The notes beneath the pieces were generated by a model, which was given only the letters and a program-made list of their open reading frames with translations, had not been told where the DNA came from and did no database searches. A stretch of DNA of 8,207 nt from Giardia intestinalis (taxonomy: Eukaryota). A program made the position numbers and the translations under genes. The stretch lies in NCBI GenBank assembly GCA_000002435.2, contig AACB03000019.1; one strand, written 5' to 3'. Shown here piece after piece: positions 1 to 8,207 of the stretch; position 1 is the first letter of the stretch; each line of letters starts with the position of its first letter.

Positions 1-3000
1 CCGCGCTGATCGGCGCCGGGTGTGCGACATGCACAGGAGAGAACGACGGACAGACGTGCCTTACGTGTAATCCCAAGAGAACAAGGTGCAGCCTGGCGGA
101 AAGAAATGCGGAGTCAGGCTGCCGGCGAACTCCACCCTAAGGAGAGCGTGTGCGAGTGCACGGAGGATACAGGCCGAACGCCCCAGGGCCAGTGCGAGCA
201 AGACCCCCGCCGCGGTGTGTGCGCCCGCGCTGATCGGCGCCGGGTGTGCGACATGCACAGGAAAGAACGACGGACAGACGTGCCTTACGTGTAATCCCCA
301 AGAGAACAAGGTGCAGCCTGGCGGAAAGAAATGCGGAGTCGGCTGCGGGAACTGCCAACCCCTAAGGAGAGCGTGTGCGAGTGCAACGGAGGATACAGGC
401 CGAACGCCCAGGGCCAGTGCGAGCAAGACCCCGCCGCGGTGTGTGCGCCCGCGCTGATCGGCGCCGGGTGTGCGACATGCACAGGAGAGAACGACGGACA
501 GACGTGCCTTACGTGTAATCCCAAGAGAGAACAAGGTGCAGCCTGGCGGAAAGAAATGCGGAGTCGGCTGCCCGGCGAACTCCACCCCTAAGGAGAGCGT
601 GTGCGAGTGCAACGGAGGATACAGGCCGAACGCCCAGGGCCAGTGCGAGCAAGACCCCGCCGCGGTGGTGTGCGCCCGCGCTGATCGGCGCCGGGTGTGC
701 GAACATGCACAGGAGAGAACGACGGACAGACGTGCCTTACGTGTATCCCCAAGAGAACAAGGTGCAGCCTGGCGGAAAGAAATGCGGAGTCGGCTGCCCG
801 GCGAACTCCACCCTAAGGAGAGCGTGTGCGAGTGCAACGGAGGATACAGGCCGAACGCCCAGGGCCAGTGCGAGCAAGACCCGCCGCGCGGTGTGTGCGC
901 CCGCGCTGATCGGCGCCGGGTGTGCGACATGCACAGGAGAGAACGACGGACAGACGTGCCTTACGTGTAATCCCCAAGAACAAGGTGCAGCCTGGCGGAA
1001 AGAAATGCGGAGTCGGCTGCCCGGCGAACTCCACCCCTAAGGAGAGCGTGTGCGAGTGCAACGGAGGATACAGGCCGAACGCCCAGGGCCAGTGCGAGCA
1101 AGACCCCGCCGCGGTGTGTGCGCCGCGCTGATCGGCGCCGGGTGTGGCGACATGCACAGGAGAGACGGACAGACGGCCTTACGTGTAATCCCAAGAGAAC
1201 AAGGTGCAGCCTGGCGGAAAGAAATGCGGAGTCGGCTGCCCGGCGAACTCCACCCCTAAGGAGAGCGTGTGCGAGTGCAACGGAGGATACAGGCCGAACG
1301 CCCAGGGCCAGTGCGAGCAAGACCCCGCCGCGGTGTGTGCGCCCGCGCTGATCGGCGCCGGGTGTGCGACATGCACAGGAGAGAACGACGGACAGACGTG
1401 CCTTACGTGTAATCCCCAAGAGAACAAGGTGCAGCCTGGCGGAAAGAATGCGGAGTCGGCTGCCCGGCGAACTCCACCCCTAAGGAGAGCGGTGCGAGTG
1501 CAACGGAGGATACAGGCCCGAACGCCCAGGGCCAGTGCGAGGCAAGACCCCGCCGCGGTGTGTGCGCCGCGCTGATCGGCGCCGGGTGGCGACATGCACA
1601 GGAGAGAACGACGGACAGACGTGCCTTACGTGTAATCCCCAAGAGAACAAGGTGCAGCTGGCGGAAAGAAATGCGGAGTCCGGCCTGCCCGGCGAACTCC
1701 ACCCCTAAGAGAGCGTGTGCGAGTGCAACGAGGATACAGGCCGAACGCCCAGGGCCAGTGCGAGCAAGACCCCGCCGCGGTGTGTGCGCCCGCGCTGATC
1801 GGCGCCGGGTGTGCGACATGCACAGGAGAGAACGACGGACAGACGTGCCTTACGTGTAATCCCCAAGAGAACAAGGTGCAGCCTGGCGGAAAGAATGCGG
1901 ATCGGCTGCCCGGCGAACTCCACCCCTAAGGAGAGCGTGTGCGAGTGCAACGGAGGATACAGGCCGAACGCCCAGGGCCAGTGCGAGCAAGACCCCGCCG
2001 CGGTGTGTGCGCCCGCGCTGATCGGCGCCGGGTGTGCGACATGCACAGGAGAGAACGACGGACAGACGTGCCTTACGTGTAATCCCAAGAGAACAAGGTG
2101 CAGCCTGGCGGAAAGAAATGCGGGAGTCGGCTGCCCGGCGAACTCCACCCCTAAGGAGAGCGTGTGCGAGTGCAACGGAGGATACAGGCCGAACGCCCAG
2201 GGCCAGTGCGAGCAAGACCCCGCCGCGGTGTGTGCGCCCGCGCTGATCGGCGCCGGGTGTGCGACATGCACAGGAGAGAACGACGGACAGACGTGCCTTA
2301 CGTGTAATCCCCAAGAGAACAAGGTGCAGCCTGGCGGAAAGAATGCGGAGTCGGCTGCCCGGCGAACTCCACCCCTAAGGAGAGCGTGTGCGAGTGCAAC
2401 GGAGGATACAGGCCGAACGCCCAGGGCCAGTGCGAGCAAGACCCGCCGCGGTGTGTGCGCCCGCGCTGATCGGCGCCGGGTGTGCGACATGCACAGGAGA
2501 GAACGACGGACAGACGTGCCTTACGTGTAATCCCAAGAGAACAAGGTGCAGCCTGGCGGAAAGAATGCGGAGTCGGCTGCCCGGCGAACTCCACCCTAAG
2601 GAGAGCGTGTGCGAGTGCAACGGAGGATACAGGCCGAACGCCCAGGGCCAGTGCGAGCAAGACCCCGCCGCGGTGTGTGCGCCCGCGCTGATCGGCGCCG
2701 GGTGTGCGACATGCACAGGAGAGAACGACGGACAGACGTGCCTTACGTGTAATCCCCAAGAGAACAAGGTGCAGCCTGGCGGAAAGAAATGCGGAGTCGG
2801 CTGCCCGGCGAACTCCACCCCTAAGGAGAGCGTGTGCGAGTGCAACGGAGGATACAGGCCGAACGCCCAGGGCCGTGCGAGCAAGACCCCGCCGCGGTGT
2901 GTGCGCCCGCGCTGATCGGCGCCGGGTGTGCGACATGCACAGGAGAGAACGACGGACAGACGTGCCTTACGTGTAATCCCCAAGAGAACAAGGTGCAGCC

Positions 3001-8207: not shown

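What the first reader, a model, noticed from the sequence alone, without database searches (positions are those of the whole stretch)
1..8207. Hypothesis: variant-surface or high-cysteine membrane protein of a GC-rich eukaryotic microbe, with in-frame copy-number plasticity
Several features recall protist surface antigens, for example Giardia VSP/HCMP-type proteins that carry long identical tandem repeats and frequent CXXC motifs. These are CXXC pairs combined with EGF-like C-x-C modules, an N-glycosylation sequon in every unit, a GC3-biased GC-rich coding frame, and very long arrays of identical units with a period that is a multiple of 3. Any gain or loss of units keeps the reading frame. 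Such loci typically show size polymorphism between strains and can contribute to antigenic or adhesive variation. Similar architectures also exist in some GC-rich bacteria (Myxococcota or Planctomycetota cysteine-rich repeat proteins), so domain of life is not settled from this window alone.
Basis: inference. Interest (0 to 1): 0.5.

Follow-up and report, generated by a model that had tools for sequence, protein, structure and literature searches.

The report
Giardia surface-antigen (VSP) repeat array

Summary
The whole window is one tandem array: 36.5 copies of a 225-bp unit (TRF, 98% matches). The consensus unit encodes a 75-residue module on the + strand. It has 10 cysteines, two CXXC motifs, one CXC, one CXXXC and one NST sequon, with GC3 of 0.76. 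The unit is nucleotide-for-nucleotide identical to the published repeat consensus of Giardia WB VSP gene GL50803_50290. That gene has a signal peptide, 28 identical modules, a transmembrane helix and a CRGKA tail (2153 aa, chromosome 3). An exhaustive HMMER search of 1.84 billion representatives found 12 relatives. Every named one is a Giardia VSP or high-cysteine protein, and none is bacterial. The copies differ from a perfect array by 84 single-base indels and 4 substitutions. These are enriched at homopolymers and crowded at both window ends, while 3131-4839 is perfect. That is the signature of a poorly polished long-read contig, not of decay. The window's 36.5 units exceed the 28 annotated. 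This could mean a longer allele, an under-assembled reference, or an over-extended repeat contig, and the data here cannot decide between them.

The parts
1..8207 (+). Tandem array of 36.5 copies of a 225-bp unit. It is the internal ectodomain-coding part of a Giardia VSP gene of the GL50803_50290 type and runs off both ends of the window.
   Evidence: TRF. Consensus and translation. Consensus is nucleotide-identical, as a rotation, to the published GL50803_50290 repeat pattern.
3357..3581 (+). One perfect 75-aa module, taken as the reference unit. It has 10 Cys, 2 CXXC, CXC, CXXXC and an NST sequon. The N-terminal half is furin-repeat-like and the C-terminal half is EGF-like.
3131..4839 (+). 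Longest stretch with no difference from a perfect array (about 7.6 units).
   Evidence: Global alignment of the window to an ideal array.
2928..4940 (+). Longest uninterrupted reading frame in the VSP frame (670 aa). It has no true start codon: the unit has no Met, and the listed GTG is only a mechanical start.
   Evidence: ORF list. Unit sequence.
1..2000 (.). Error-dense left end: 45 of the 88 differences from the perfect array, mostly 1-nt indels.
   Evidence: Per-500-nt counts of 13, 11, 10, 11. Per-unit list.
7001..8207 (.). Error-dense right end: 22 differences, mostly 1-nt insertions.
   Evidence: Per-500-nt counts of 12, 8, 2. Per-unit list.

Best explanation
The window is a repeat-only fragment of a Giardia duodenalis (assemblage A, WB-type) variant-specific surface protein gene, either GL50803_50290 itself or an allele or copy of it.

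Shown here:
- The + strand encodes at least 36 head-to-tail copies of a 75-residue, 10-cysteine module.
- In the complete reference gene the same modules sit between an N-terminal signal peptide and the conserved VSP C-terminus (TM helix plus CRGKA). The product is therefore a type I membrane protein whose whole exposed part is this repeat.

Inferred from fold and profile comparisons:
- Each module looks like a furin-type cysteine-rich repeat (two CXXC) followed by an EGF-like half (CP-x-NS...C-x-C-x2-GY...C). The five disulfides per unit are assumed from the 10 conserved cysteines; no bonding pattern was determined.

Inferred from established VSP biology (Adam 2010, PMC2996952, and works cited there):
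- The protein is one member of the roughly 130-270-gene vsp repertoire. A trophozoite displays one member at a time and switches between them epigenetically.
- Repeat domains are immunodominant.

Inferred about array dynamics:
- Units are identical at the nucleotide level and 225 = 3 x 75. Unequal exchange or slippage can therefore change unit number without breaking the frame, which changes protein size and epitope valency.

Inferred about the sequence quality:
- The 84 indels are consensus errors of a long-read assembly at low-coverage contig ends, not biology.
For: Array and unit.

Identity:
- The closest proteins are Giardia VSPs.
- The cluster mate P0004 is a 2153-aa WB VSP (KAE8302825.1 / XP_037901808.1) with a signal peptide, 28 units identical to the window's unit, a TM helix and CRGKA.
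- The supplement of bioRxiv 10.1101/2022.03.07.483299 lists it as GL50803_0050290: 6462 nt, chr 3 (NC_051858.1), Inr caatgtt, signal peptide, TM, CRGKA. Its tandem-repeat consensus is a 225/225-nt match to the window consensus.
- The one-unit partner GL50803_102178 (128 aa) shares 217 contiguous identical nt with the unit. It scores 67.6 bits on Pfam VSP PF03302 against a cutoff of 31.4.

Coding strand and constraint:
- dN/dS is 0.16-0.35 between the WB, DH and P15 one-unit genes. Differences fall mainly on third positions in the comparisons involving P15. All Cys are conserved.

Distribution:
- Only 12 representatives at E<=1e-3 among 1.84 billion, and all the named ones are Giardia.
- Nothing was found in 185,579 bacterial and archaeal genomes.

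Error signature:
- 84 indels against 4 substitutions.
- 26 of 50 deletions lie in homopolymers of 3 or more bases, although only 15% of bases lie in such runs.
- Errors are crowded at both ends and the centre is perfect.
- Xu et al. 2020 describe PacBio homopolymer frameshifts and 33 small repeat-rich leftover contigs in the WB assembly.
- P0014 and P0019 on a 3464-bp WB contig are frameshifted translations of another VSP repeat, which is the same kind of object.

Fold.
Against: - The window contains no 5' or 3' gene end, so its link to a signal peptide and CRGKA tail rests on identity with the reference gene, not on its own flanks.
- The window has 36.5 units and the reference gene 28, so it is not simply a sub-sequence of that annotated gene.
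- The source contig could not be identified.
- Three tandem window units get no Pfam hit above threshold, and the single 80-aa window unit gets none even at E<=1.
- No expression data for this gene were examined.
Confidence: 0.95

Rival explanations
1. Decayed pseudogene array (pVSP): the 84 indels are real mutations, and this copy of the repeat is no longer translated.
For: The raw + frame is interrupted many times, and the longest intact stretch is 670 aa. The WB genome holds about 208 pseudo-VSPs (PMC7000408). No complete VSP gene was found on unplaced WB scaffolds (bioRxiv 10.1101/2022.03.07.483299).
Against: Indels outnumber substitutions 84 to 4. Deletions are enriched at homopolymers. 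Differences are concentrated in the first 2 kb and the last 1.2 kb, while 1.7 kb in the centre is perfect. Real decay would be spread evenly and dominated by substitutions.
Confidence: 0.04
2. The copy number is an assembly artefact. The contig was built from reads lying wholly inside the 28-unit chromosome-3 array and tiled at arbitrary 225-bp offsets, so 36.5 units is not a biological number.
For: All units are identical, so any offset that is a multiple of 225 aligns equally well. [quoted passage not shown] Adam 2010 warns that repeat numbers in assemblies are only approximate.
Against: If any single read spans 8.2 kb of pure repeat, the array must exceed 28 units (6.3 kb). Allelic repeat-number variation is documented for vspA6 and vspC5. 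Neither point could be tested here.
Confidence: 0.45
3. Cysteine-rich repeat protein of a GC-rich bacterium (Myxococcota or Planctomycetota). This is the alternative the reader left open.
For: High GC (65%) and repetitive Cys-rich modules.
Against: The unit is nucleotide-identical to a Giardia gene. All named relatives are Giardia. The pattern-plus-tblastn scan of 185,579 prokaryotic genomes found none.
Confidence: 0.005
4. Non-coding satellite, an RNA gene, or a gene on the - strand.
For: Two antisense frames of the unit are open.
Against: Open antisense frames are expected by chance given this codon set. The antisense translations have no Pfam match. There is no Rfam family match. The sense frame shows purifying selection and invariant cysteines.
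Confidence: 0.005

Closest known systems
Giardia WB VSP GL50803_50290 (XP_037901808.1 / KAE8302825.1, 2153 aa, chr 3)
   Same: The 225-nt repeat consensus and the 75-aa unit are identical.
   Different: The reference gene has 28 units plus both gene ends. The window has 36.5 units, no ends, and 88 differences that look like sequencing errors.
Giardia one-module mini-VSPs: GL50803_102178 (WB, 128 aa, vsp156 of Adam 2010), DHA2_151917 (127 aa), P15 EFO60887.1 (128 aa)
   Same: Same signal peptide, same module and same tail. The WB gene shares 217 identical nt with the unit. The DH and P15 genes sit in conserved synteny with each other, next to an aminotransferase and a kinase.
   Different: They carry one unit only and lack the 8-nt AAGACCCC (Q-D-P) inter-unit junction. 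DH and P15 are 12% and 22% diverged at the nucleotide level.
Classical repeat-bearing VSPs: vspA6/CRP170 (195-bp unit, about 22 copies) and vspC5 (105-bp unit, about 25 copies)
   Same: The ectodomain is largely or wholly tandem repeats whose period is a multiple of 3. Allelic copy-number variation is known, related genes with a single repeat copy exist, and the repeats are immunodominant (PMC2996952).
   Different: The unit sequence and length differ. Copy-number variation for the 225-bp array of this window has not been shown experimentally.
Other WB VSPs built from the same module type (P0006 with 13 modules, P0007/P0018, P0008, GL50803_50070, GL50803_38901)
   Same: Same 10-Cys framework and the same KVQ / CP-x-NS / C-x-C-x2-GY landmarks, at 42-52% identity.
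   Different: These are paralogous modules, each array having its own unit sequence.
Furin-like cysteine-rich repeats (R-spondin Fu1-Fu2, ErbB CR domains) and EGF-like domains (factor IX EGF2, Pfam cEGF)
   Different: All scores are below family thresholds, and the window's own unit gets no Pfam hit. This is similarity of building block, not membership.

Membership tests
Giardia variant-specific surface protein (VSP) | Cysteine-rich ectodomain (about 11-13% Cys) with many CXXC motifs | tested here: met
   10 Cys in 75 aa (13.3%) and 2 CXXC per unit.
Giardia variant-specific surface protein (VSP) | N-terminal signal peptide | tested here: met
   Not present in the window, because the array runs off the 5' end. 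It is present in the reference gene that carries the identical unit: P0004 begins MLLVLLASCIAVQA, and the bioRxiv supplement lists this as a signal peptide.
Giardia variant-specific surface protein (VSP) | Conserved C-terminal region of about 38 aa with a TM helix and an invariant CRGKA tail | tested here: met
   Not in the window. In P0004 and P0001 it reads ...[33 protein letters not shown]. The definition of the feature is in PMC7000408.
Giardia variant-specific surface protein (VSP) | Match to Pfam PF03302 (VSP) | tested here: inconclusive
   Window units alone give no hit. The one-unit gene P0001 scores 67.6 bits (cutoff 31.4) over residues 15-128, which include the module. Only 19 of 136 WB VSPs match this Pfam domain, so it is not a strict criterion.
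Giardia variant-specific surface protein (VSP) | Initiator-like CAATGTT/TAATGTT at the start codon | not testable with these tools
   The start codon is not in the window. The literature tables give caatgtt for GL50803_50290 and GL50803_102178.
Giardia variant-specific surface protein (VSP) | Nucleotide identity with a catalogued vsp gene | tested here: met
   225/225 nt match to the GL50803_50290 repeat consensus, and 217 contiguous identical nt with GL50803_102178.
Giardia high-cysteine membrane protein (HCMP) | Cys-rich type I membrane protein lacking the CRGKA tail | tested here: not met
   The reference gene with this repeat ends in CRGKA, so it is a VSP and not an HCMP.
EGF-like domain (Pfam cEGF PF12662 / factor IX EGF2 type) | Significant profile match and the C-x-C-x2-G-[YF]...C signature | tested here: inconclusive
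   The signature CECNGGYRPNAQGQC is present. The module profile against PDB gives E 1.7e-4. 8 of 14 related modules hit cEGF at E<=1, best 2.4e-5, but the window unit itself does not.
Furin-like cysteine-rich repeat | Structural match to Fu repeats | tested here: inconclusive
Bacterial cysteine-rich repeat proteins (Myxococcota / Planctomycetota) | Homologues in bacterial genomes | tested here: not met
   No relative in 185,579 prokaryotic species genomes. No bacterial protein appears among the 12 HMMER hits.

The most novel reading that the evidence does not exclude
The window records a real allele, or the true state of the chromosome-3 locus, with at least 37 units. That would be a VSP of at least about 2,800 aa and would make it the largest VSP of the WB repertoire. 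It would show either that the reference gene (28 units) is under-assembled, or that the tetraploid isolate carries alleles of different repeat number, as seen for vspA6 and vspC5.
Probability: 0.4. Interest if true: 0.25.

Novelty: already known. Interest (0 to 1): 0.12.

Why it matters
It matters little beyond bookkeeping. The gene and its 225-bp repeat are already catalogued in the Giardia WB reference and in a published VSP census.

The useful points are practical:
- Repeat-only long-read contigs such as this one carry frameshift errors and should not be annotated as genes or pseudogenes.
- The repeat number of this VSP is uncertain. Because VSP repeats are immunodominant, the true unit number and its variation between alleles or isolates bear on antigen size and epitope valency.

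Tried and rejected
Searches that found nothing or were uninformative:
- Pfam and PDB sequence searches with three tandem units: no meaningful hit.
- Exact look-ups of the encoding contigs for P0001, P0004 and the 670-aa window ORF: not on record.
- Exact look-ups of ten ATG-started window ORFs, to identify the source contig: none in the collection.
- Exact-match scan of JGI metagenome contigs for the 45-nt inter-unit junction: 0 hits.
- Search of prokaryotic genomes with the module alignment: 0 confirmed.
- Rfam: 0.
- Literature search for the gene numbers in main texts: nothing specific.

Structure attempts:
- AF2 on the 128-aa one-unit VSP with 4 sequences: pLDDT 50, unusable. I replaced it with a module-only alignment of 14 sequences, which gave pLDDT 82.
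- Foldseek against PDB: nothing significant.

Not done:
- I ran no further search on the antisense frames. The sense-strand identity is decisive, and open antisense frames are expected by chance.

Full report
**What is in the window**

Tandem Repeats Finder reports one array covering 1-8207, with period 225, 36.5 copies, 98% matches and 1% indels. G+C is flat at 0.64-0.66, with constant positive GC and AT skew. I cut the array at a conserved anchor, aligned the 37 pieces and took the majority consensus.

The 225-nt consensus has one open frame on the + strand. It encodes PALIGAGCATCTGENDGQTCLTCNPQENKVQPGGKKCGVGCPANSTPKESVCECNGGYRPNAQGQCEQDPAAVCA. This unit has 10 cysteines in 75 residues, CXXC at residues 8 and 20, CXXXC at 37, CXC at 52, and an NST sequon at 44. 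GC1/GC2/GC3 are 0.60/0.59/0.76.

Two antisense frames of the unit are also free of stops. Permuting the sense codons leaves at least one antisense frame open in every trial and two open in 41% of trials, so this carries no information. The antisense translations have no Pfam match, and the window matches no Rfam family.

**How the copies differ**

A global alignment of the window to a perfect array gives 50 deletions, 34 insertions and only 4 substitutions. Twenty-six of the 50 deletions fall in homopolymer runs of 3 or more bases, although only about 15% of the unit's bases are in such runs. The differences per 500 nt are 13, 11, 10, 11, 4, 4, 1, 0, 0, 1, 5, 4, 1, 1, 12, 8, 2. They crowd at both ends, and 3131-4839 is flawless. 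All four substitutions also lie in the error-dense ends.

This is the profile of a long-read consensus with thin coverage at the contig ends. It is not the profile of sequence divergence or pseudogene decay. It follows that the window is probably a whole small contig made only of repeat (inference). As a result the raw + frame is broken many times, and the longest intact piece is 2928-4940 (670 aa).

**What it is**

A word-indexed search of 5.8 billion proteins with three consensus units returned three proteins, all Giardia VSPs of 127-128 aa. Each consists of a signal peptide, one copy of the module, and the canonical VSP C-terminus ending in CRGKA.

The 90% cluster of the WB protein has a second member, P0004 (KAE8302825.1 / XP_037901808.1, 2153 aa). 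It has the same signal peptide, 28 copies of exactly the window's 75-aa unit, and the same TM-CRGKA tail.

The supplementary tables of a published census of Giardia cysteine-rich proteins (bioRxiv 10.1101/2022.03.07.483299) list it as GL50803_0050290. The entry reads: 6462 nt, chromosome 3 (NC_051858.1), initiator caatgtt, signal peptide, TM, CRGKA, 56 CXXC. The same tables give its tandem-repeat consensus, which is a 225/225-nt rotation of my window consensus.

The 128-aa gene is GL50803_00102178, which is vsp156 in Adam et al. 2010 (clade III, chr 3). It shares 217 contiguous identical nucleotides with the unit. Only the 8-nt inter-unit linker AAGACCCC is specific to the multi-unit form. That gene scores 67.6 bits on Pfam VSP PF03302 (cutoff 31.4), and the alignment includes the module.

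The two WB genes have consecutive GenBank protein accessions and lie on the same 1.97-Mb sequence, so they are probably neighbours (inference).

**Coding strand and constraint**

The DH (assemblage AII) and P15 (assemblage E) one-unit genes lie in conserved synteny with each other, next to an aminotransferase and a kinase. A metagenome contig carries the DH allele unchanged. They are 87.6% and 78.5% identical to the WB gene at the nucleotide level, and each locus holds only one unit.

Nei-Gojobori dN/dS is 0.35 (WB vs DH), 0.16 (WB vs P15) and 0.21 (DH vs P15) for the whole gene, and 0.2-0.7 for the module. Third-position changes are in excess in the comparisons involving P15. Within the module alone WB vs DH shows no such excess (9, 9, 10), and over the whole gene third positions account for 22 of the 45 differences. 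Every cysteine is conserved.

The module differs by 12% between AI and AII isolates, yet it is identical across more than 36 copies within the array and in the neighbouring one-unit gene. The array is therefore either recently expanded or kept uniform by unequal exchange or gene conversion (inference).

**Distribution**

An exhaustive phmmer run of one unit against 1.84 billion cluster representatives found only 12 proteins at E<=1e-3. All those that carry a name are Giardia duodenalis VSPs, or 'high cysteine protein' fragments, from assemblages A, B and E.

Several of these are themselves arrays of a paralogous module, for example P0006 with 13 modules. An alignment of 14-17 such modules keeps all ten cysteines and the landmarks GC-x-TC, QTC-x2-C, KVQ, CP-x-NS and C-x-C-x2-GY. 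A scan of 185,579 bacterial and archaeal genomes found no relative. The bacterial alternative is therefore excluded.

One weak hit is an unnamed non-Giardia-like protein with six half-module-like repeats (P0015, E 1.4e-4).

**What the module looks like**

- A profile of the modules matches the second EGF domain of coagulation factors IX, X and VII over its C-terminal half, with best E 1.7e-4.
- Eight of 14 related modules touch Pfam cEGF (best E 2.4e-5), though the window's own unit does not.
- AlphaFold2 with four full-length sequences failed (pLDDT 50). With the 14-module alignment it gave pLDDT 82 for the 80-aa segment, with short beta-hairpins throughout.
- Foldseek against the PDB found nothing significant. 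Its top list is nevertheless ErbB and insulin-receptor cysteine-rich domains, NELL, uromodulin, Pfs25 and R-spondin.

I read the unit as a furin-type repeat followed by an EGF-like half. This agrees with what SMART finds in other VSPs. It is a resemblance, not a demonstrated family membership.

**How it most likely works**

Shown:
- The reference gene encodes a type I membrane protein whose entire ectodomain is this repeat.
- The period keeps the frame.
- Versions with 1, 28 and at least 36.5 units exist in the sequence data.

From the literature:
- VSPs coat the trophozoite.
- Thirty to thirty-six WB vsp genes carry tandem repeats of 105-516 bp.
- Repeat numbers in assemblies are approximate because arrays collapse.
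- vspA6 and vspC5 show allelic repeat-number variation.
- A relative of vspA6 has a single repeat.
- The vspA6 repeat is immunodominant (PMC2996952; bioRxiv census).

Inferred:
- Unequal exchange or slippage between identical units changes unit number, and with it protein length and epitope valency.

**The one loose end**

The window has 36.5 units (8.2 kb), while the annotated gene has 28 (6.3 kb). The window therefore cannot be a sub-sequence of the reference gene. There are three readings:
- a longer allele in a tetraploid organism;
- an under-assembled reference locus;
- a contig over-extended by tiling intra-array reads at arbitrary 225-bp offsets.

Xu et al. 2020 assembled the reads that failed to map to their scaffolds separately. 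This left 33 small contigs under 33 kb that are 'enriched with repeats', and the authors noted PacBio homopolymer frameshifts (PMC7000408). The WB assembly also holds a 3464-bp contig whose 'high cysteine proteins' (P0014, P0019) are partly out-of-frame translations of another VSP repeat. The window fits that class of object.

I could not identify its source. Exact look-ups of its ORFs and of the reference proteins' contigs returned nothing, and the junction is absent from JGI metagenome contigs.

**Verdict**

The object is an already catalogued Giardia VSP repeat, seen here on an error-bearing repeat-only contig. Interest is low. The only open question, of modest value, is the true repeat number.

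Noticed in passing
P0014 / P0019 (KAE8301200.1, KAE8301199.1) on a 3464-bp Giardia WB contig: These proteins are annotated as 'High cysteine protein'. They are partly out-of-frame translations of the repeat of another VSP (P0006 type). 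In other words, this is another repeat-only leftover contig with frameshift errors, and its gene models are probably artefacts.
   Followed up: partly
P0001 (WB), P0005 (WB, second locus), P0003 (DH; L001 10001-10384; identical in metagenome contig L002 2196-2579), P0002 (P15; L003 8747-9133): There is a class of minimal VSPs of 127-128 aa, made of a signal peptide, one 75-aa module and the TM-CRGKA tail. The DH and P15 copies are syntenic with each other. Whether they are true one-unit genes or collapsed arrays in short-read assemblies is unknown.
   Followed up: partly
window consensus compared with GL50803_102178: The inter-unit junction contains 8 nt (AAGACCCC, encoding Q-D-P) that are absent from the one-unit gene. 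The array is therefore not a simple head-to-tail duplication of the present one-unit gene.
   Followed up: no
WB vs DH one-unit genes: They show 12% nucleotide divergence, and dN/dS within the module is 0.70, between two sub-assemblages of assemblage A. This is much faster evolution than the tail of the same gene.
   Followed up: no
P0015 (Logan assembly, 376 aa, unnamed): This non-Giardia-like Ser/Asn/Thr-rich protein has six repeats of CPxNSxxSYGxCxCNDGYxxNYSxGQC. They resemble the EGF-like half of the VSP module (E 1.4e-4). Its origin is unknown.
   Followed up: no
L001 12570-14456 (-): A reverse-transcriptase (RVT_1) ORF lies 2.2 kb downstream of the DH mini-VSP. This fits the reported association of vsp genes with retrotransposon remnants.
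   Followed up: no
P0007 vs P0018 (XP_001709860.1 vs .2): The older gene model of a repeat-bearing WB VSP has about 80 extra N-terminal residues upstream of the real signal peptide and fewer residues overall (451 vs 598 aa). This shows how the models of repeat VSPs changed between assemblies.
   Followed up: no
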